Source of the DNA: Nautiliaceae bacterium
Lineage (GTDB): Bacteria > Campylobacterota > Campylobacteria > Campylobacterales > Nautiliaceae
Direction of reading: 5' to 3'
DNA length: 64,000 nt
NCBI GenBank assembly: GCA_039831155.1
Contig: JBDONT010000008.1
Location: forward strand, 29,318 to 93,317
The position numbers were made by a program, and so were the translations under genes. Shown one piece after another: positions 48,170-55,314 of this stretch. Below the pieces are notes generated by a model. It was given only the letters and a program-made list of their open reading frames with translations, did not search any database and had not been told where the DNA came from. The stretch's first letter is position 1. Each line of letters begins with the position of its first letter.

Positions 48170-49954
48170 ATGGATATGATAGTTCAGAGTTACTTAGACG
48201 ATTTTAAAAAAAGTTTTGGTTTTAATAACTTAAAAAATGATAAACTTTTTGAAAAATTTGTAAATTATATTTTAATTAATGATTTAATTCCATCTGGTGT
48301 TTCTCCTGAAGATTTAAGTGATAATGAAACAGGAACATATCAAGGTATAGATGGTATATTTTTTATAGTAAATGGTAGAATAATTAATTCTAAAGAGGAG
48401 TTAATAGAAATTGTAAATAAATTTTCTGAAAATGTTTTGAAAATAATATTTATCCAATCTAAAACAACTCCTAAATTTGAATTAAATGAAATTAGAAATT
48501 TTGGAAACATTGTCAAAGACTTTTTAGGTCATAATCCTAAATATTCATTAACAAGTGAAGCTAAGCAATTACATGAGATTTTTTTAGCAATTGTTAAATT
48601 TCATTCAAAATTTAAAGAAGTAGTTATTAATTTATATTTTGCTACAACAGGTTTATTAGAAGAAAATAAAGATAGAGATGTATTGTGTGATGAAATAACA
48701 GAAACTATAACAATATTAGGAATTAGTAAGCCTTTTGATAAAAATAATGTTTTTTTTAATTTAATTGATAAGCAAAAATTGTTAAGTTTATATGATAAAA
48801 CGAAATATTCAGAGGAGGTTGAAATTGAATTTAAGGATAAAACATCATTAGATGTTTCTAATCCAAATATAAAAGAAGCATATATCGGATGGTTGCCTTG
48901 GAATGAATATAAAAAAATATTAATAAATGAAAGAGGCGAAATACGAAATTTATTTTATGATAATGTGAGGGATTTTTTAGGGATAGAAGATAATGAAGTT
49001 AACAAAGAAATAAAAAGAACTATAGAAAATATTCCTGAAATGTTTCATTTATTAAATAATGGAGTTACTATTATAAGTGATAAAAATGAAAGAATGCAAG
49101 AAAAGTTTAGAATTTCTAATTTTCAAATTGTTAATGGTTGTCAAACTTCTAATGTTTTATATGAAATATATAAAGAAAAAGGGGATTTTGAAAATTTAAA
49201 AATTCCTGTTAGATTGATAATTACAGAAGATGAAGATATTAAAAATTCTATTATTATTGCTACTAATAGTCAAAATAAAATTCCTGAAGAACAATTAAGT
49301 GCATTAACATCTTTTCAAAAAGAATTAGAAAAATATTATGAAGCATTTTCTAAAAAAGCACCTTTTAAAATTTATTACGAAAGGAGAGCTAATCAGTATA
49401 ATAATTCTGATATTTTAAAAAAAGAAATTATAGATTTAAGAGAACAACTAAAATTATTTAGTTCTATATTTTTGGAAATTCCTCATATTGCAACATCTAC
49501 TTATAGTAAGGTCTATAGAGAAAATAAAAGAAAAATTTTTTTACCTAATCATAGATATGAACCTTATTTTTTTGGAGGAGTACTTGCATATTTTTTTAGG
49601 CATTTTCTTAATACTTCTAAAATTGATAGAAAATATAATAAGGCAAGATATCATTTGTTTTTAATGGTAAGATTGTTAATAGAGGAAGAAACATTTGAGT
49701 TTAATAAGATAAACTCTGAAAAATATATGAATAAATACTTTAAGAATTTTTTTGATAATATTTTGGATAAAGATAATTATGAGAATTATTTATTAAAATT
49801 GTTTAATAGAGCTATTTCAATTTTAGAAAATGGTTTTAAAGAAAAAGGTTTGGATTTAAATAATCAAAGAGAGTTTTATAAAAAAGATTCTTCAGAAATA
49901 GTTAAACAGGTAGTTTTTGAGTATAAAAGGGCAAAAGGAAAAATTCAAAAATGA
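48170..49954 (+). CDS. AIPR-family (abortive infection phage resistance) protein
   Basis: GIDG, QSK, FYDNVRDFLG, LNNGVTI, QIVNGCQT, ATNSQN, YERR..QY. Confidence 0.9.
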   Translation: MDMIVQSYLDDFKKSFGFNNLKNDKLFEKFVNYILINDLIPSGVSPEDLSDNETGTYQGIDGIFFIVNGRIINSKEELIEIVNKFSENVLKIIFIQSKTTPKFELNEIRNFGNIVKDFLGHNPKYSLTSEAKQLHEIFLAIVKFHSKFKEVVINLYFATTGLLEENKDRDVLCDEITETITILGISKPFDKNNVFFNLIDKQKLLSLYDKTKYSEEVEIEFKDKTSLDVSNPNIKEAYIGWLPWNEYKKILINERGEIRNLFYDNVRDFLGIEDNEVNKEIKRTIENIPEMFHLLNNGVTIISDKNERMQEKFRISNFQIVNGCQTSNVLYEIYKEKGDFENLKIPVRLIITEDEDIKNSIIIATNSQNKIPEEQLSALTSFQKELEKYYEAFSKKAPFKIYYERRANQYNNSDILKKEIIDLREQLKLFSSIFLEIPHIATSTYSKVYRENKRKIFLPNHRYEPYFFGGVLAYFFRHFLNTSKIDRKYNKARYHLFLMVRLLIEEETFEFNKINSEKYMNKYFKNFFDNILDKDNYENYLLKLFNRAISILENGFKEKGLDLNNQREFYKKDSSEIVKQVVFEYKRAKGKIQK

Positions 49955-50730
49955 ATCAATATGCTAAAATTAAAAATTTACTAAAAGAAGTTATTAAAAA
50001 AAAGTTTAAAGACTATGAAACTACAAAAGAACCAGCCTATATGCCATTTCACATAGCACTCCTTGGAAAAGATAAGTTAGCTTTGTATCAATTTATCCAC
50101 TCTCTTAATACAAATTTTGGAACTACTATTTTTGAACCGGTAGCAATAGAACTTGCGAAAAATAACTTTGATAAAGTTGATAGACAGCTTAAAATTGAAA
50201 CGGAAATTTCTGAGGAAACTTTAAAAGAAATTGATATAATTATTGATGAGTTGAATATTGCAAGTAAAAAACCAAATAAATCAGAGGAGATTGAAAGAAT
50301 AAAGAAAAAATTATTTATTGGAGAAAAAAGAAAAGTAAAGCTTACAAGAGTTGATTTGTATTGTCAAAGAGATAACAAAGCATATCTTTTTGACATAAAA
50401 ACTGCGAAACCTAATAAAGGCAGTTTTTTAGAGTTTAAAAGAACGCTTTTAAAATGGGCAGCAGCTATTTTGACTATAAATCCGAATTTGGATGTTTATA
50501 CTATTATTGCAATTCCGTATAACCCTTATTATCCAAAGCCTTATAGTCGTTGGACTATGGCAGGAATGCTTGATTTAGAAAATGAATTGTTAGTTGCAGA
50601 AGAGTTTTGGGACTTCTTAGGAGGAAATGGGAGTTATGATAAATTATTAAAAACTTTTGAGCAAGTTGGAACTGAAATGAGAGAAGAGATTGATGAGTTT
50701 TTTAAAAAATTTAATAAGGAAAATTCTTGA
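49951..50730 (+). CDS. TdeIII/MjaII-family type II restriction endonuclease
   Basis: MPFH..LLGKD..AL..FIHSLNT.FG..IFEPVA, VDL...DIKTAKPN, PYNPY.P..Y.RWT, EEFWDFLGG. Confidence 0.85.
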   Translation: MNQYAKIKNLLKEVIKKKFKDYETTKEPAYMPFHIALLGKDKLALYQFIHSLNTNFGTTIFEPVAIELAKNNFDKVDRQLKIETEISEETLKEIDIIIDELNIASKKPNKSEEIERIKKKLFIGEKRKVKLTRVDLYCQRDNKAYLFDIKTAKPNKGSFLEFKRTLLKWAAAILTINPNLDVYTIIAIPYNPYYPKPYSRWTMAGMLDLENELLVAEEFWDFLGGNGSYDKLLKTFEQVGTEMREEIDEFFKKFNKENS

Positions 50731-51752: not shown

Positions 51753-52727
51753 ATGAAGATAGAAATAGGAGAATCAATTGTATATAGTTGGTTAAAACAT
51801 GTTAAAAAATGTAAAATTGTTCAATTAAATTGGAAAGTTTCTGAAAGTTGGGATAATGAAGAGAATAGATGGAAAAAAATAAAAGTAATTTTTAAAAAAA
51901 TTAATCAAGAGTTTGATAATATTTTAGGAGATAATTTAGAGCAGTTAATAAAACAAGCTGAAATAGATGTGGTTGGAGTTAATGAAAAAGAAATTTATGG
52001 TGTGGATGTTGCCTTTCATATTAATGGGTTAAGATATTCAAATAATGTTAGAAACATAACAAAAAAGATGTTTAGAACATTACTGATATTTGAACTCTAT
52101 TTTTCATCTTATGAAAAAAATATATTTTTTGTTACTCCAAAAGTTACTCCTAAGGAATTAGAAAATATAAAATTAAGGTTAAATGAGATTAAATATTTTG
52201 TAGAAAAAGAAGATTTGAATATTTCATTTGAGTTTATATATAACTCCTCTTTTAAAGATAAAATTTTAAATGAACTTATAAAATTTTCAAATGATATAGC
52301 TGATACATCAGAATTGTTTTTGAGAAGTTATCAATTGTTGAATTTATTTGATAATGAAAAAAAAGATTTTGTAAATTATAAAAACAATAAAAGTCGGTAT
52401 GATTTAGAAGAAAACATAGAAAATGAAATAGAAAAAGTTAAAAGTAGAGTTCCAAGGTGGTTTAAGCATAAAGACCAAATTAATTCCAAAATTTTAATTA
52501 CTTTTTTGGAATTATCAGATTTAAACTCTAAAAGTATAAGTAAAGAATATTTAAAAGCCTATTTCAAAAAGAATTATCCAAATATAAATTTTGAGAAAAA
52601 TTATAATCAAATGAAAAATTTTGGGGAAAAGAATCATGCAAAAGTATTTGAAGAGGAAAAAAATTTTATTACTTTATGGAAACCTGTTTCTGCTTTTATT
52701 GTTGAGGAATATAAAAAATTAAAATGA
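51753..52727 (+). CDS. Uncharacterised putative PD-(D/E)xK-like nuclease with separate C-terminal domain
   Basis: Low GC; E.GE...YSWL.H, QAEIDVVG...GVDVAFH..GL.Y resembles a restriction-endonuclease-fold core. Confidence 0.5.
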   Translation: MKIEIGESIVYSWLKHVKKCKIVQLNWKVSESWDNEENRWKKIKVIFKKINQEFDNILGDNLEQLIKQAEIDVVGVNEKEIYGVDVAFHINGLRYSNNVRNITKKMFRTLLIFELYFSSYEKNIFFVTPKVTPKELENIKLRLNEIKYFVEKEDLNISFEFIYNSSFKDKILNELIKFSNDIADTSELFLRSYQLLNLFDNEKKDFVNYKNNKSRYDLEENIENEIEKVKSRVPRWFKHKDQINSKILITFLELSDLNSKSISKEYLKAYFKKNYPNINFEKNYNQMKNFGEKNHAKVFEEEKNFITLWKPVSAFIVEEYKKLK

Positions 52728-52752
52728 TATAATTAGAAAAAAAGGATTTTCA

Positions 52753-52799
52753 ATGTTACTAACAATTGAAGTTCAGAATGAAAAAGTTGAAGAATTTAT
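52753..52799 (+). pseudogene. 5' part of a small ORF interrupted by the IS200/IS605 element
   Basis: AAAGGA RBS, ATG 52753 MLLTIEVQNEKVEEF ending at the TTTAT insertion motif. Confidence 0.5.
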
Positions 52800-52886
52800 C
52801 CAATCCCAGCAAAGAATACTCCATCTAAATGCGAAGCATTAGGTGGAGATGAATTTGCTATTTGCGATAACAAATTATTAAAAAAC

Positions 52887-52914
52887 TTGACGAATTCAAT
52901 AATTTTGATACAAT
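52887..52914 (+). promoter_or_regulatory. Sigma70 promoter for tnpB inside the element
   Basis: TTGACG-16 nt-TACAAT with a TGn extended -10. Confidence 0.65.
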
Positions 52915-52951
52915 TTGTTTATTATAGATAACAAACAAAAGGCGGTATATA

Positions 52952-54169
52952 GTGCTTTTGGCTACAAACAACAGAGTTAAGACTAAAAACAAAGTAAAAC
53001 TTGCAATCTTAAAAGAACTAACGCACAATTCAAAAGACCTATATAATAAAGCACTATATACTATAAGACAACATTTCTTTTCTACAAAAGAGTATCTATT
53101 ATATCAAGAAGTTTACAAACTTCTAAAATCAAGCGAAGAGTATAAAAGACTTCCAAGCAATGCAAGTCAGCAGACTTTAAAGCAGGTAAATAATGCTTTT
53201 AAAAGTTTTTTTAAACTTCTAAAAGTCAAGAATCAAGGACAAAAAGTCCATATTCCAAGATATTTGGATAAAGATGGACATTTTAAAGTAATCTATACAA
53301 AAATCCATTTAAAAACAATGGACAACGGATATATCAGACTTGCATTGCCAAAATATATTAAAGAAAAATACAAAGTCAATTATCTTTACTTTAAGATACC
53401 AAAACATATCCAAAATAAAGAGATAAAAGAAGTGCATATTTTGCCTTATAAGCCACATTATAAGATATCGTTTGTGTATAGTGATGGAGATAAAAACTAT
53501 AATTACTATACAACAGACGATATTATGGCAATAGATTTTGGAATAGATAACCTTGCAGCTATTATTACACGATATGATAAGCCCATTATACTTGATGGCA
53601 AGTCCTTGAAATCCAAGAACAGATATTTCAATAAGAAAATATCTGTTTTGCTATCAAGTATTACAAAGGGTAAAAATCCAAAAGAGTGGAAAAAAGAGAG
53701 TTTTAAAAGATTAAACATTTGGTATCAAAGAAGAGATAATTACATCAAAGACTATTTGCATAAAACTGCAACTAAAATAATCAATATTGCAATAGAAAAA
53801 GGGATTAAGACTATTGTAGTGGGATACAATAAACTTTGGAAAAACAGATGCAACATTGGAAGAAAAAATAACGAAAAATTCCTCTCAATTCCTCATTCTA
53901 AATTACTTCAATATATTAAATACAAAGCTACTCAACATAAATTAGAGATAATTGAAACGGAAGAAAGCTACACATCAAAATGCGATGCACTTGCATTAGA
54001 GCCAATCCAAAAACACGAAAAGTATCTTGGTAAAAGAGTAAAAAGAGGACTTTTTCAATCAAGTATAGGAAAATTAATCAATGCAGATGTAAATGGTGCA
54101 TTGAATATATTAAGAAAAAGCGTAGCCTGTGATTCTCTCATAAGAGAGATAGCGGGTAGAGGGCATTGA
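52952..54169 (+). CDS. tnpB: RNA-guided endonuclease TnpB
   Basis: LYNKALY, RuvC-I AIDFGIDNL, DYLHK, IVVGYN..WK, EESYTSKCD, RuvC-III NADVNGALNI. Confidence 0.95.
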   Translation: MLLATNNRVKTKNKVKLAILKELTHNSKDLYNKALYTIRQHFFSTKEYLLYQEVYKLLKSSEEYKRLPSNASQQTLKQVNNAFKSFFKLLKVKNQGQKVHIPRYLDKDGHFKVIYTKIHLKTMDNGYIRLALPKYIKEKYKVNYLYFKIPKHIQNKEIKEVHILPYKPHYKISFVYSDGDKNYNYYTTDDIMAIDFGIDNLAAIITRYDKPIILDGKSLKSKNRYFNKKISVLLSSITKGKNPKEWKKESFKRLNIWYQRRDNYIKDYLHKTATKIINIAIEKGIKTIVVGYNKLWKNRCNIGRKNNEKFLSIPHSKLLQYIKYKATQHKLEIIETEESYTSKCDALALEPIQKHEKYLGKRVKRGLFQSSIGKLINADVNGALNILRKSVACDSLIREIAGRGH

Positions 54170-54316
54170 CAAATTTCTGAAAGAAATTTAGGGTTGGTGT
54201 GTGTTCCAGCCTGTAAGGGTATATATCCACCCTTACAAACCTTCCCATAAGGGAAGCCCCACCTATATTACAAAGTAATTAGGTGGAGAGGTTCACTTAC
54301 TCTAAATTTAAAAGAT
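54129..54316 (+). ncRNA. Predicted TnpB omega/reRNA scaffold plus ~20-nt guide (5' end approximate)
   Basis: Stacked hairpins 54134-54149, 54171-54189, 54191-54212, 54212-54237, 54241-54256, 54257-54288; ends TTCAC; flank TTACTCTAAATTTAAAAGAT is the guide. Confidence 0.7.
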
Positions 54317-54387
54317 TTTAAATATATTGATGGTATAAAATTAGTTAAACTTTGATACCATTTCAATAATAAAACAAAGGAGAGATT

Positions 54388-55314
54388 ATGAAATTTAAAC
54401 TTTTCAGTGGTACGGCAAATCCAAAAGTTGCAGAGGATATTGCTTATTATTTGGATAGACCTCTTAGTAATTTAACTGTTAACAGATTTAGTGACGGGGA
54501 AATAAACGTTCAAGTTGGAGAGAGTATAAGAGGGGTTGACTGTTTTATAATTCAACCTACTTGTGCACCGGCTAATGATAATTTGATGGAACTTCTGATT
54601 ATTACCGATGCTATGAGAAGAGCGAGTGCTAAAAGCATTACTGCAATCGTTCCTTATTTCGGATATGCAAGACAAGACAGAAAAGCAGCTCCTAGAGTGC
54701 CTATTACTGCAAAACTTGTTGCCAATATGATGGAAAAAGCAGGAATTGATAGAGTCGTAACTCTTGATTTACACGCCGGTCAAATTCAAGGTTTTTTTGA
54801 TATTCCTGTTGATAATCTTTATGGAAGTATTCTGTTTTTTGATTATTTTAAAGAAAAAAGACTTAAAAATCCTATTATTGCATCTCCTGATATAGGTGGA
54901 GTTGCAAGGGCAAGGTACTTTGCAAGCAAACTTGGTCTTGATATGGTAATTGTGGATAAAAGAAGAGAAAAAGCAAATGAGAGTGAAGTTATGAATATTA
55001 TAGGCGATGTAAAAGGAAAAGATGTTATTTTAATTGACGATATGGTAGATACTGCCGGGACTATGGTAAAAGCCGCAGCGGCACTTAAAGCAAAAGGTGC
55101 TACAAGTGTAAGGGCTTTTGCAACTCACGGGGTACTTAGTGGACCTGCGATTGAAAGAATTAAAGATTCTGTGTTGGAAGAACTTATTATTACCGATACA
55201 ATTCCTTTTAACAAAGAGTGTAAAAAAATAAAAGTGCTTAAAACTGGAAAACTTTTTGCAGAGGTTATTAGAAGAATCGTTTATAATGAAAGTATTAACA
55301 AGCTTTTTGATTGA
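54388..55314 (+). CDS. prs: Ribose-phosphate pyrophosphokinase
   Basis: FSDGE, PYFGYARQDR, DLHAGQIQGFF, SPDIGG, DDMVDTAGT. Confidence 0.99.
   Translation: MKFKLFSGTANPKVAEDIAYYLDRPLSNLTVNRFSDGEINVQVGESIRGVDCFIIQPTCAPANDNLMELLIITDAMRRASAKSITAIVPYFGYARQDRKAAPRVPITAKLVANMMEKAGIDRVVTLDLHAGQIQGFFDIPVDNLYGSILFFDYFKEKRLKNPIIASPDIGGVARARYFASKLGLDMVIVDKRREKANESEVMNIIGDVKGKDVILIDDMVDTAGTMVKAAAALKAKGATSVRAFATHGVLSGPAIERIKDSVLEELIITDTIPFNKECKKIKVLKTGKLFAEVIRRIVYNESINKLFD

What the first reader, a model, noticed from the sequence alone, without database searches (positions are those of the whole stretch)
52795..54316. Fully decodable tnpB-only element: both ends, TAM, omega-RNA and guide readable from sequence
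Seen: both ends carry the same subterminal stem (C(T/C)CCA(T/C)CTA...TAGGTGGAG). The 4 nt 5' of the right hairpin are GAAG and the element ends in TCAC. The 4 nt 5' of the left hairpin are AATA, and TTAT (TTTAT) lies directly before 52800. Known: in IS608/ISDra2-type elements this guide tetranucleotide pairs with the cleavage site (IS608: GAAT-TCAA, AAAG-TTAC), and the left target motif equals the TnpB TAM. Inference: GAAG-TCAC and AATA-TTAT both fit that rule, so the TAM should be TTAT/TTTAT and the guide TTACTCTAAATTTAAAAGAT. This would be a compact 405-aa programmable nuclease, probably from a moderate thermophile, needing a TnpA in trans.
Basis: partly seen in the sequence, partly recalled or inferred. 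Interest (0 to 1): 0.8.

Follow-up and report, generated by a model that had tools for sequence, protein, structure and literature searches.

The report
Non-autonomous tnpB transposon, ends confirmed
This is an ordinary tnpB-only insertion sequence of the IS200/IS605 type whose ends, target motif and guide were read correctly, although this copy encodes a shortened nuclease and its genome lacks the transposase needed to move it.

Summary

Sibling copies in related Nautiliaceae genomes and vent metagenomes fix the ends. Thirteen of 13 left junctions with a left end, plus 2 run loose ends, read TTTAT|C. Ten of 10 right ends stop at TTCAC| before unrelated DNA. In relative G015, an insertion splits an M23 peptidase gene whose halves rejoin in frame across TTTAT. 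So TTTAT is target DNA, with nothing duplicated.

TTTAT and TTCAC are the motifs published for ISGst2 of Geobacillus stearothermophilus. A true IS200-type tnpA with a homologous left end occurs in relatives G029 and G015 but not in the window's genome.

Three corrections:
- The TnpB is of the "rearranged RuvC-II" kind (Gly291 replaces the usual Glu; Glu338 is invariant) and has no zinc finger.
- The 405-aa length is a truncation. A 34-nt insert brings a stop codon, and 66 of 66 aligned relatives run longer.
- That insert also lies inside the presumed omega-RNA scaffold.

Verdict: a correct reading and a new member of a known kind. Whether this copy still works is open.

The parts
52795..52799 (+). 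TTTAT target motif, the left cleavage site and predicted TnpB TAM. It is flanking DNA, not part of the element.
   Evidence: Seven of 8 aligned close copies and 6 of 6 G015 contig-end junctions read TTTAT|C. Two loose ends in runs X1 and X3 also keep it. The in-frame rejoining of a split gene shows it is target DNA.
52800..52951 (+). Left end. It holds a 19-nt linker (52800-52818) whose last 4 nt, AATA (52815-52818), are the left DNA guide. The imperfect hairpin is at 52819-52848, with a conserved T.G at its sixth pair. An outer stem pairs AGCAAA (52808-52813) with TTTGCT (52854-52859).
   Evidence: Sequence, DNA fold, and conservation and hairpin covariation among copies.
52887..52914 (+). 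Promoter-like site for tnpB: TTGACG, 16 nt, TACAAT with TG before the second hexamer.
   Evidence: Ten of 12 consensus positions. It is conserved in all 8 aligned copies. This is a consensus match only; no transcription start was mapped.
52914..52939 (+). Conserved 12-bp inverted repeat at the start of the presumed 5' UTR, just before the Shine-Dalgarno sequence and the GTG start.
   Evidence: Sequence and conservation in the copies. Its function was not tested.
52952..54169 (+). tnpB, 405 aa. It has RuvC-I Asp195, Gly291 at the usual RuvC-II Glu position, the alternative Glu338, and RuvC-III Asp379 in an NADVN motif. It has no C4 zinc finger and is truncated at the C-terminus relative to its relatives.
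   Evidence: Pfam and NCBIfam matches, alignments, HMM alignment to AsCas12f, AlphaFold2 model at pLDDT 87.7, and Foldseek matches to Cas12f and TnpB.
54165..54199 (+). A 34-nt insert relative to most copies (35 nt are skipped, with one T between). It carries the TGA stop and its own small hairpin.
   Evidence: It is absent from 5 of 7 aligned copies and shared with the decayed copy L037. One RNA-library contig in X1 joins 54164 to 54200.
54115..54296 (+). Presumed omega-RNA scaffold; its 5' limit is unknown. Stems lie at about 54125-54157, 54213-54237 and 54242-54257 and at the right-end hairpin, with a long-range pairing of 54208-54212 with 54289-54293.
   Evidence: RNA fold of 54115-54316: -70.7 kcal/mol, z -5.83. 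Consensus fold: 56 pairs, 6 with changes on both sides, against 0-1 when the 3' partners are slid. RNA ends were not mapped.
54253..54296 (+). Right-end core: DNA guide GAAG (54253-54256), hairpin 54257-54288, 4-nt linker, and cleavage motif TCAC (54293-54296; TTCAC from 54292).
   Evidence: Sequence and DNA fold. All 7 aligned copies and 3 of 3 G015 contig ends stop at TTCAC|. Loose ends in the runs start at 54297 and 54298.
54297..54316 (+). Flank-derived guide of the omega-RNA, TTACTCTAAATTTAAAAGAT. The true guide length was not determined.
   Evidence: It is the sequence directly 3' of the confirmed right boundary. That TnpB guides come from this position is established knowledge for TnpB elements; it was not tested here.

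Best explanation
Window 52800-54296 is a non-autonomous IS200/IS605-type insertion sequence that carries only tnpB and its omega-RNA. It sits directly 3' of a TTTAT target.

Transposition (inferred from the IS608 and ISGst2 work): a Y1 (HUH) TnpA supplied in trans binds the two top-strand hairpins. The tetranucleotides 5' of each hairpin foot, AATA and GAAG, pair with TTAT and TCAC to set the two cut sites. The top strand leaves as a single-stranded circle and the donor is resealed as TTTAT joined to the right flank.

Nuclease function (inferred): tnpB is transcribed from the internal promoter. The 3' part of that transcript, running through the right end into the flank, becomes the omega-RNA. 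TnpB loaded with it would cut DNA that reads TTTAT followed by the flank sequence, that is, the emptied donor site, so that the element is copied back.

What is shown here: the ends, the target motif, the absence of target duplication, the fit of the guide pairing, the conserved catalytic residues, and a conserved structured 3' region.

What is not shown: RNA ends, binding or cleavage. This copy is a variant whose TnpB lacks the conserved C-terminal segment and whose scaffold carries a 34-nt insert. Its genome assembly has no matching TnpA, so it is probably immobile there at present.
For: Family:
- PF01385 scores 64.3 bits and PF07282 37.8 bits. NF040570 guided_TnpB scores 164.6 bits against a cut-off of 100.
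- The AlphaFold2 model has pLDDT 87.7. Its best Foldseek matches are AsCas12f (TM 0.72) and ISDra2 TnpB 8h1j (TM 0.74 by target length).

Boundaries:
- The G023 copy matches from window 52795 to 54297 and no further.
- Left junctions read TTTAT|C in 7 of 8 aligned copies; the eighth, L037, has no left end. All 6 of 6 G015 contig ends read the same.
- Right ends stop at TTCAC| in 7 of 7 aligned copies, with the next base T, T, T, T, A, T, G, and in 3 of 3 G015 contig ends, with next base G, A, A.
- Other flanks appear as loose ends at 52793, 52795, 54297 and 54298 in runs X1-X3.

Empty site:
- G015 contig ends L071 and L073 carry the two halves of an M23 peptidase gene. They join as HGRGIY|SCYYHL, matching the G011 orthologue HGRGVYSCYYHL with nothing lost or doubled.

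Guide rule:
- For IS608, CL is TTAC with GL AAAG, and CR is TCAA with GR GAAT. The guides lie 4 nt 5' of the hairpin foot, CL lies 19 nt from the foot, and A+16 pairs with T-3 and A+17 with T-4.
- The window's left spacing is also 19 nt.
- Between the window's own two ends, two guide positions change together with their cleavage-site partners (A-T at the left end, G-C at the right).
- In the tnpA-carrying sister left ends, the guide is AATT and the flank ends in A.
- Hairpin stems covary between lineages while staying alike at both ends of each: CTCCATCTA/TAGGTGGAG in the window, CTCCCTCTA/TAGAGGGAG in G015.

Published precedent:
- ISGst2 has TAM TTTAT and right-end motif TTCAC, and one TnpA mobilises five element families in trans.

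Catalytic site:
- D195, G291, E338 and D379 are invariant in 67 of 67 aligned sequences.
- G291 aligns with the catalytic Glu of AsCas12f.
- A rearranged-site TnpB, TvTnpB, cleaves in a TAM-specific way (PMC10530073, passages).

Selection:
- The window and G023 copies are 84% identical in DNA but 93% in protein.

RNA:
- See the scaffold entry under parts.
- Contigs from RNA libraries X1 and X2 lie on the whole element and cross both junctions without a mismatch.
Against: - No RNA 5' or 3' end, RNP or cleavage was observed. The RNA-library evidence comes from contigs, which cannot show strand or level and may include DNA carry-over.
- The empty allele of the window's own site was not found.
- The window's TnpB has 1 residue after Gly404, while 66 of 66 aligned relatives have 6 or more. 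Of these, 55 of 66 carry a conserved G-x-[VI]-x-x-P motif. In a full-length relative that motif is modelled as ordered (residues 401-410 at pLDDT 90, a strand at 410-412).
- The 34-nt insert lies inside the scaffold. The only other copy with it, L037, is frameshifted (one search finds it in three pieces) and lacks a left end.
- The third base of the left guide is T. IS608 has A there at both ends, and a single A in each guide is reported to activate TnpA.
- One sibling, L035, has TCAT instead of AATA yet still sits after TTTAT.
- The window's genome (96.7% complete) has one copy of the element and no IS200-type tnpA.
Confidence: 0.85

Rival explanations
1. The element is what it looks like, but this copy is a decaying relic. 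The truncated TnpB, the 34-nt scaffold insert or both abolish RNA-guided cleavage, and without a TnpA the copy is stranded. This rival concerns the functional state only and is compatible with the identity given above.
For: - The C-terminal tail is the shortest of 67 aligned sequences, and a conserved, ordered segment is missing.
- The insert is shared only with the frameshifted copy L037.
- A form without the insert, otherwise identical over 53861-54164, is present in run X1.
- The genome has a single copy and no cognate tnpA.
- The right hairpin has a C.A mismatch at 54258.
Against: - The ORF has no internal stop or frameshift, and D195, E338 and D379 are kept.
- Both DNA guides, both hairpins and the promoter are intact.
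- The insert forms its own hairpin, with a compensatory change between the two copies that carry it, so it may be tolerated.
- The same C.A mismatch occurs in L035.
- Contigs from RNA libraries match this copy's two junctions exactly.
Confidence: 0.35
2. The tnpB has been domesticated as a fixed, single-copy host gene, for example as an RNA-guided regulator, and is no longer part of a mobile element.
For: It is single copy in this genome and no TnpA is present.
Against: - The catalytic residues are intact.
- Both transposon ends are complete.
- The locus is absent from all 5 same-genus genomes searched, which have another spacer between mnmA and prs.
- Near-identical copies sit at other sites in the same vent samples, and the element is multi-copy in G015.
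Confidence: 0.03
3. The boundaries are placed wrongly. Either TTTAT belongs to the element, or the element is of another type, such as IS607 moved by a serine recombinase.
For: TTTAT is conserved at every junction, so copy comparison alone cannot tell target from element. More distant family members at 36-38% identity have ends of a different look.
Against: - The split M23 peptidase gene needs TTTAT to encode Ile-Tyr and matches its orthologue only if TTTAT is host DNA.
- The hairpins, the 19-nt spacing and the guide pairing follow the IS608 pattern.
- A Y1 tnpA carries a homologous left end.
Confidence: 0.02

Closest known systems
ISGst2 of Geobacillus stearothermophilus, a tnpB-only IS605-family element (Meers et al., bioRxiv 10.1101/2023.03.14.532601; I read passages and section 5)
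   Same: - It is a non-autonomous tnpB plus omega-RNA element moved by a TnpA encoded elsewhere.
- It has the same TAM (TTTAT) and the same right-end motif (TTCAC).
- Its DNA guides pair with those motifs.
- Its RuvC-I Asp is at nearly the same position (D196 there, D195 here).
- Its host is a thermophile.
   Different: - The host phylum differs.
- Whether the two TnpB proteins or hairpins are homologous could not be tested, because I had no ISGst2 sequence and the paper's figures and supplements are not held.
- No cognate TnpA is present in the window's genome.
- The window copy is truncated and carries a scaffold insert.
IS608 of Helicobacter pylori (PMC3201880 and PMC5934647; passages read)
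   Same: - It has subterminal top-strand hairpins.
- Its left cleavage site lies 19 nt 5' of the hairpin foot.
- Its 4-nt guides lie 5' of each foot, with the same pairing pattern: guide bases 1 and 2 pair crosswise with cleavage-site bases 2 and 1, and base 4 pairs with base 4.
- It inserts 3' of the target without duplication.
   Different: - IS608 carries tnpA and tnpB.
- Its target is TTAC and its right-end site is TCAA, 10 nt from the foot. Here the sites are TT(T)AT and TCAC, with only 4 nt between the foot and TCAC.
- The third base of the left guide is T here and A in IS608.
TnpBs with a rearranged RuvC-II site: the RIIr clades of Altae-Tran et al. 2023 (PMC10691335) and 'TnpB2', including TvTnpB, of Jiang et al. 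2023 (PMC10530073); passages read
   Same: - The canonical RuvC-II Glu is replaced by Gly.
- A conserved alternative Glu lies 47 residues downstream, just after strand beta-5 (the papers say about 45 residues, on beta-5).
- RuvC-III has the NADXN motif.
   Different: - The named clade could not be assigned, because the supplements that define the clades are closed.
- The window's family also lacks the C4 zinc finger. The PNAS text says that finger is kept in most major clades.
- TvTnpB's TAM is NTGAC.
ISDra2 TnpB (PDB 8exa, 8h1j, 8bf8)
   Same: It has the same overall fold (TM 0.67 by query length and 0.74 by target length for 8h1j). It is a guide-RNA nuclease of similar size from an IS200/IS605 element.
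   Different: - Sequence similarity is weak: E 2.8e-4 over residues 56-278 only.
- From recall, ISDra2 TnpB has the canonical Glu and a zinc finger, and its TAM is TTGAT.
Solo tnpB elements of Sulfolobus islandicus (PMC10640517; passages read)
   Same: TTTAT flanks the solo tnpB elements there, while TTTAA flanks the elements that carry both tnpA and tnpB. Here the tnpB-only left ends follow TTTAT, and the two tnpA-carrying sister left ends follow TTTTAA.
   Different: The hosts are archaea. No sequence comparison was made. The boundary of the tnpA-carrying elements here is inferred from 2 copies only.

Membership tests
IS200/IS605 family insertion sequence | Subterminal imperfect hairpins at both ends, on the same (top) strand | tested here: met
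   The stems are alike at both ends, and they covary together between lineages.
IS200/IS605 family insertion sequence | Insertion 3' of a short specific target, with no target duplication and no terminal inverted repeats | tested here: met
   Fifteen left junctions follow TTTAT. A sibling insertion in G015 rejoins a split gene in frame. This was not shown for the window's own site.
IS200/IS605 family insertion sequence | A 4-nt DNA guide 5' of each hairpin foot that pairs with the cleavage site | tested here: met
   AATA with TTAT and GAAG with TCAC fit the IS608 pairing pattern. Two guide positions covary between the two ends, and one between sister left ends. Exceptions: L035 has TCAT, and the decayed L037 has GAAA.
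IS200/IS605 family insertion sequence | A Y1 (HUH) TnpA in the element or elsewhere in the genome | tested here: not met
   The window's genome has only a 255-aa REP-associated-transposase-like gene (PF01797 at 35.5-38 bits, NF047646 below its cut-off). It gives 0 matches to the IS200-type TnpA of G015. That TnpA, with a homologous left end, is present in G029 and G015. The element is therefore non-autonomous, as many family members are.
TnpB (RNA-guided endonuclease, NF040570; PF01385 with PF07282) | Profile matches above the curated cut-offs and the TnpB/Cas12f fold | tested here: met
TnpB (RNA-guided endonuclease, NF040570; PF01385 with PF07282) | A RuvC acidic triad | tested here: met
   D195, E338 (relocated) and D379 are invariant in 67 of 67 sequences. 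Their closeness in three dimensions could not be measured, because the model's coordinates are not exposed.
TnpB (RNA-guided endonuclease, NF040570; PF01385 with PF07282) | A C4 zinc finger between RuvC-II and RuvC-III | tested here: not met
   Between E338 and D379 there are 0 or 1 Cys in 61 of 67 sequences. Both Cys pairs of AsCas12f align with non-Cys residues. The PNAS paper notes that the finger is lost in some large branches.
TnpB (RNA-guided endonuclease, NF040570; PF01385 with PF07282) | An omega-RNA from the 3' end of tnpB through the right end into the flank | tested here: inconclusive
   There is a structured, covarying 3' region, and RNA-library contigs lie over it. No RNA ends were mapped. 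Rfam has no matching family.
RuvC-II-rearranged TnpB (RIIr clades / 'TnpB2') | The canonical RuvC-II Glu replaced by Gly or Pro, with a conserved alternative Glu about 45 residues downstream on beta-5 | tested here: met
   G291 ends strand 287-292 and aligns with the catalytic Glu of AsCas12f. E338 follows strand 332-337, 47 residues later.
RuvC-II-rearranged TnpB (RIIr clades / 'TnpB2') | Placement in a named clade (RIIr-3, RIIr-5 or another) on the published tree | not testable with these tools
ISGst2-like element | TAM TTTAT and right-end motif TTCAC | tested here: met
ISGst2-like element | Homology of the TnpB, hairpins and TnpA to those of ISGst2 | not tested
   No ISGst2 sequence was on hand. 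A tblastn search of plasmids listed no Geobacillus record among the 30 rows shown of 113.

The most novel reading that the evidence does not exclude
The 34-nt insert may be more than damage: it could be a natural off-switch. It ends the TnpB reading frame before a conserved C-terminal segment. At this locus, 16 nt of it can also pair with the last bases of the right end plus the first 13 nt of the guide (15 of 16 positions, counting G.U pairs; this pairing appears in the minimum-energy fold but not in the centroid). That would hide the guide and leave a silenced element in a genome without TnpA. The other copy that carries the insert has a different flank that does not pair with it, so the match is most likely chance.
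Probability: 0.05. Interest if true: 0.5.

Novelty: new member of a known kind. Interest (0 to 1): 0.25.

Why it matters
The finding shows that the ends, TAM and guide of a tnpB-only element can be read correctly from sequence alone, because the calls here confirmed each item. But this is the published way of decoding such elements, and the motifs equal those of ISGst2, so no new principle emerges.

The practical value is modest:
- It gives a defined TAM, scaffold and end set for a zinc-finger-less TnpB lineage with a rearranged catalytic site, from vent Campylobacterota that probably grow at around 40-55 C.
- Natural long (about 430 aa) and short (405 aa) forms exist, with and without a scaffold insert. 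Comparing them would test what the conserved C-terminal segment does.
- The same left end is used by a tnpA-carrying element that encodes a different, typical TnpB. This illustrates one transposase serving several cargo types, as already shown in Geobacillus.

Tried and rejected
- **Rfam scan:** 52000-55000 at E up to 1 gave no match.
- **Empty allele of the window's own site:** not found. The 5 same-genus genomes join mnmA to prs through a different spacer of about 260 bp, so neither the 324-aa ORF nor the element is there at the DNA level. No contig in the 4 runs laid joins across the whole element. Absence of such a joint is not evidence.
- **Empty site of the G023 insertion:** G025 and G007 have the two flanking genes adjacent, but the spacer is too diverged (about 80% identity in the genes) to place the junction to the base.
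- **Guide/target covariation in distant family members:** the groups at 36-38% identity (L007/L009, L038-L045) have ends of another look, without this hairpin or TTTAT, so they gave no test.
- **Single-sequence search of PDB sequences:** the top hits were designed pentatricopeptide repeat proteins, an artefact of ten weak repeats summed on residues 272-306. The profile search gave Cas12f and TnpB instead.
- **Enrichment of the bare 9-mer TAGGTGGAG:** rejected as evidence; see the observation check.
- **The 324-aa ORF upstream:** no family in Pfam, NCBIfam or PADLOC.
- **tblastn against plasmids:** run to find a named, characterised relative. It gave 113 records, all under 60% identity, annotated as TnpB. 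The best was Methanohalobium at 43.8%, and no Geobacillus record was among the 30 rows shown.
- **Run X6 (an RNA library from another study):** 6 of the 8 listed pieces lie only on 54200-54272 and come from a relative's copy without the insert. This is tempting as a sign of a stable small RNA, but contigs cannot rank parts of a gene, so I do not count it.
- **Earlier notes of this scan:** the look-up returned nothing.
- **Literature:** a search for TnpB together with Nautiliaceae found 0 papers.
Full report
**What is in the window**

The stretch contains one long ORF, 52952-54169 on the + strand (405 aa, GTG start). It lies between an unnamed 324-aa ORF (51753-52727) and prs (from 54388).
- Left hairpin 52819-52848, preceded by AATA (52815-52818), with TTTAT at 52795-52799.
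- Right hairpin 54257-54288, preceded by GAAG (54253-54256), with the element ending in TCAC at 54293-54296.

As single-stranded DNA both ends fold far better than shuffled sequence (z -4.15 and -4.29; 0 of 200 shuffles as good). The full hairpin pattern occurs only at these two places in the 1.53-Mb genome and not at all in the control. The bare 9-mer of the 3' arm is also frequent elsewhere in the window (6 found, 0.2 expected). Those other sites are Gly-Gly codons without hairpins, so I give that excess no weight.

**Where the element begins and ends**

The genome holds a single copy, by DNA and by protein. Relatives and metagenomes hold siblings:
- G023 has a copy at 93% protein identity, and G015 a frameshifted one. 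Their record titles call them Nautiliaceae MAGs.
- Vent metagenome contigs hold seven close copies, L032-L037 and the fragment L050. By their flanks, L033 and L037 appear to be the same loci as the G023 and G015:C36 copies.

The G023 copy matches the window from 52795 to 54297 and no further.

At the left side, 7 of 8 aligned copies read TTTAT|C(C/A)AA, preceded by unrelated DNA. The eighth, L037, has no left end there. G015 also carries a multi-copy variant that broke its assembly: 6 of 6 contig ends read TTTAT|CAAACTC.

At the right side, 7 of 7 aligned copies end in TTCAC and then diverge (next base T, T, T, T, A, T, G). So do 3 of 3 G015 contig ends (G, A, A).

Contigs of runs X1-X3 add further flanks. 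These show as loose ends that start at 52793, 52795, 54297 and 54298.

**TTTAT is target DNA, not part of the element**

Copy comparison cannot settle this, because TTTAT is present at every junction. One G015 insertion does settle it. Contig end L071 (a left junction) and contig end L073 (a right junction) carry the two halves of an M23 peptidase gene. Read across the insertion they give HGRGIY|SCYYHL. The intact orthologue in G011 reads HGRGVYSCYYHL. The Ile-Tyr codons are the TTTAT, and nothing is lost or doubled. So the element runs from the C after TTTAT to TTCAC and inserts without target duplication, as IS200/IS605 elements do. That the two contig ends belong together is inferred from this fit.

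**The DNA-guide rule**

From passages in PMC3201880 and PMC5934647, IS608 works as follows:
- It cuts 3' of TTAC, which lies 19 nt 5' of the left hairpin foot.
- It cuts 3' of TCAA, which lies 10 nt 3' of the right foot.
- The sites are recognised by 4-nt guides, AAAG and GAAT, located 5' of each foot.
- A+16 pairs with T-3, and A+17 with T-4.

Comparing the two IS608 ends adds that guide base 4 pairs with site base 4.

The window follows this pattern:
- The left spacing is again 19 nt.
- AATA with TTAT and GAAG with TCAC satisfy all three Watson-Crick positions.
- Between the window's own two ends, two of those positions change together (A-T at the left, G-C at the right).

The details that differ are listed under "Caveats and scoring" below.

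**A transposase with the same ends**

The window's genome (96.7% complete) has no IS200-type tnpA. The only Y1-domain gene is a 255-aa ORF with a C-terminal HTH. It best matches REP-associated tyrosine transposases, though below their cut-off, and is conserved beside gap in three relatives.

A real TnpA exists in relatives:
- In G029, a short contig carries a complete leftward tnpA (133 aa). It is flanked by a left end whose guide region and hairpin (AAAGAATT, then CTCCATCTAAA...TTTAGATGGAG, then ATGAATTTG) are plainly homologous to the window's. A divergent, typical tnpB follows.
- G015 has the same arrangement with the G015-type stem. Its tnpA is cut by an insertion of the tnpB-only element at a TTTAT.

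In both tnpA-carrying left ends the guide ends in T and the flank ends in A (TTTTAA). That is the change the rule predicts relative to AATA and TTTAT. This rests on 2 copies, and their exact boundary is inferred.

**Published precedent**

One TnpA serving several cargo types is what Meers et al. showed for ISGst1-5. Their ISGst2 has TAM TTTAT and right-end motif TTCAC, identical to the motifs here (bioRxiv 10.1101/2023.03.14.532601; passages and section 5).

**The protein**

It is a TnpB:
- It matches Pfam PF01385 and PF07282 and NCBIfam guided_TnpB at 164.6 bits against a cut-off of 100.
- At least 4135 database proteins match at E <= 1e-10, of the 7998 candidates scored.
- The AlphaFold2 model has pLDDT 87.7. 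It matches AsCas12f and ISDra2 TnpB over its whole length.

In an alignment of 67 sequences, D195, G291, E338 and D379 are invariant.

A profile alignment to AsCas12f places:
- G291 on the catalytic Glu of its RuvC-II motif,
- E338 on the Pro before YTSQ,
- D379 on the Asp of NAD,
- non-Cys residues on both zinc-finger Cys pairs.

In the model, G291 ends strand 287-292 and E338 follows strand 332-337. This is the "rearranged RuvC-II" state described by Altae-Tran et al. (Glu replaced by Gly, alternative Glu on beta-5; PMC10691335, passages) and by Jiang et al. (alternative Glu about 45 residues away). Jiang et al. showed that one such protein, TvTnpB, cuts DNA in a TAM-specific way without collateral activity (PMC10530073, passages). 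I could not assign a named clade, because the supplements are closed.

The window and G023 copies differ by 16% in DNA but only 7% in protein. This fits selection on the protein.

**This copy is a short variant**

Relative to 5 of 7 aligned copies, the window has a 34-nt insert at about 54165-54199. The insert carries the TGA stop and a small hairpin of its own. As a result:
- The protein stops one residue after Gly404.
- All 66 other aligned sequences have 6-29 more residues.
- Of these, 55 of 66 carry a G-x-[VI]-x-x-P motif.
- A full-length sibling models that segment as ordered (residues 401-410 at pLDDT 90, strand 410-412), with a disordered tail after 417.

The only other copy with the insert is the frameshifted G015:C36 locus. 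A contig in RNA library X1 that is identical to the window over 53861-54164 skips the insert, so both forms coexist in the sampled community. Whether the short form works is open.

**The RNA**

- The last 182 nt of the element plus 20 nt of flank fold at -70.7 kcal/mol (z -5.83).
- Across 7 copies the consensus fold has 56 pairs, 6 of them with changes on both sides. Only 0-1 such pairs appear when the 3' partners are slid by 1-3 columns.
- The compensated stems are the right-end hairpin and the CTTCCC/GGGAAG stem before it. Both could also matter as DNA.
- Contigs of two RNA libraries from one sample lie on all 30 bins of the laid stretch and cross both junctions without a mismatch. Contigs cannot show strand, ends or level.
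- Rfam has no family for this RNA.
- A promoter-like site (TTGACG, 16 nt, TG-TACAAT; 52887-52914) precedes tnpB and is conserved in the copies.

**Context**

In the closest genome, G005 (93-94% DNA identity in the flanking genes), and in three more same-genus genomes, mnmA is followed by prs with a different short spacer. In the fifth, G002 (55% complete), the flanking genes were not matched at all. In none of the five were the 324-aa ORF or the element found at the DNA level. The insertion site therefore lies in strain-specific DNA, which is why no empty allele could be found.

**Caveats and scoring**

Two details depart from IS608:
- The third base of the left guide is T, where IS608 has A. 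A single A in each guide is reported to activate TnpA.
- Sibling L035 has replaced AATA by TCAT, which turns its left end into a perfect 20-bp hairpin, yet it still sits after TTTAT.

Nothing here demonstrates RNA processing, binding or cleavage.

I rate it a new member of a known kind, with interest 0.25.

Noticed in passing
window 51753-52727 (+): A 324-aa ORF with no match in Pfam, NCBIfam or PADLOC. It fills, together with the element, the gap between mnmA and prs. It was not found at the DNA level in the 5 same-genus genomes.
   Followed up: partly
window 49951-50730 (+): A TdeIII-type type II restriction endonuclease gene (PF09520, 270.8 bits) directly upstream of mnmA and overlapping it. 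No partner methylase was looked for.
   Followed up: no
L003:1438-2205 (own genome, contig C22): A 255-aa gene with a Y1 (HUH) transposase domain plus a C-terminal helix-turn-helix. It best matches REP-associated tyrosine transposases, below their cut-off, and lies beside gap. ORFs of 255-293 aa with the same domain are in G015, G023 and G003. It looks like a domesticated or REP-type enzyme. Whether REP-like repeats exist in the genome was not checked.
   Followed up: partly
L037 / L005 (G015:C36): A decayed copy. Its tnpB is in three frames and it has no left end. Instead, about 65 nt of a right end that stops at TTCAC is fused to the promoter region of the element. How this arose (nested insertion and deletion, or recombination between the two like hairpins) was not worked out.
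   Followed up: partly
L035:~970-1130: A sibling whose left end is a perfect 20-bp hairpin. The guide AATA is replaced by TCAT, which pairs with the 3' side, and the inner stem differs from that of its own right end. It may be a left end rewritten by copying across the hairpin.
   Followed up: no
window 54165-54199 and 54294-54309: Part of the 34-nt insert can pair with the last 3 nt of the element plus the first 13 nt of the guide (15 of 16 positions, counting G.U pairs). The pairing is in the minimum-energy fold but not in the centroid. The other copy with the insert has a flank that does not pair with it, so this is probably chance.
   Followed up: partly
window 52914-52939 (+): A 12-bp inverted repeat at the presumed start of the tnpB transcript, just before the Shine-Dalgarno sequence. 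It is conserved in all aligned copies. It may be a 5' stabilising or regulatory stem.
   Followed up: no
G015 contig ends L066-L074: The element has expanded in G015, with at least 6 left and 3 right junctions at contig ends. One insertion splits an M23 peptidase gene and another splits an IS200-type tnpA.
   Followed up: yes
L083 and L084 (G015:C85, C67): A second, unrelated IS608-like element type in G015. Only the last part of a tnpA is left, followed by a typical tnpB in the same direction.
   Followed up: no
window 52754-52799, continuing at 54297: A short reading frame starts at 52754 and runs into the element. Read across the emptied site it would be only 23 codons, so the insertion may have split a tiny ORF or none at all (by eye).
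   Followed up: no
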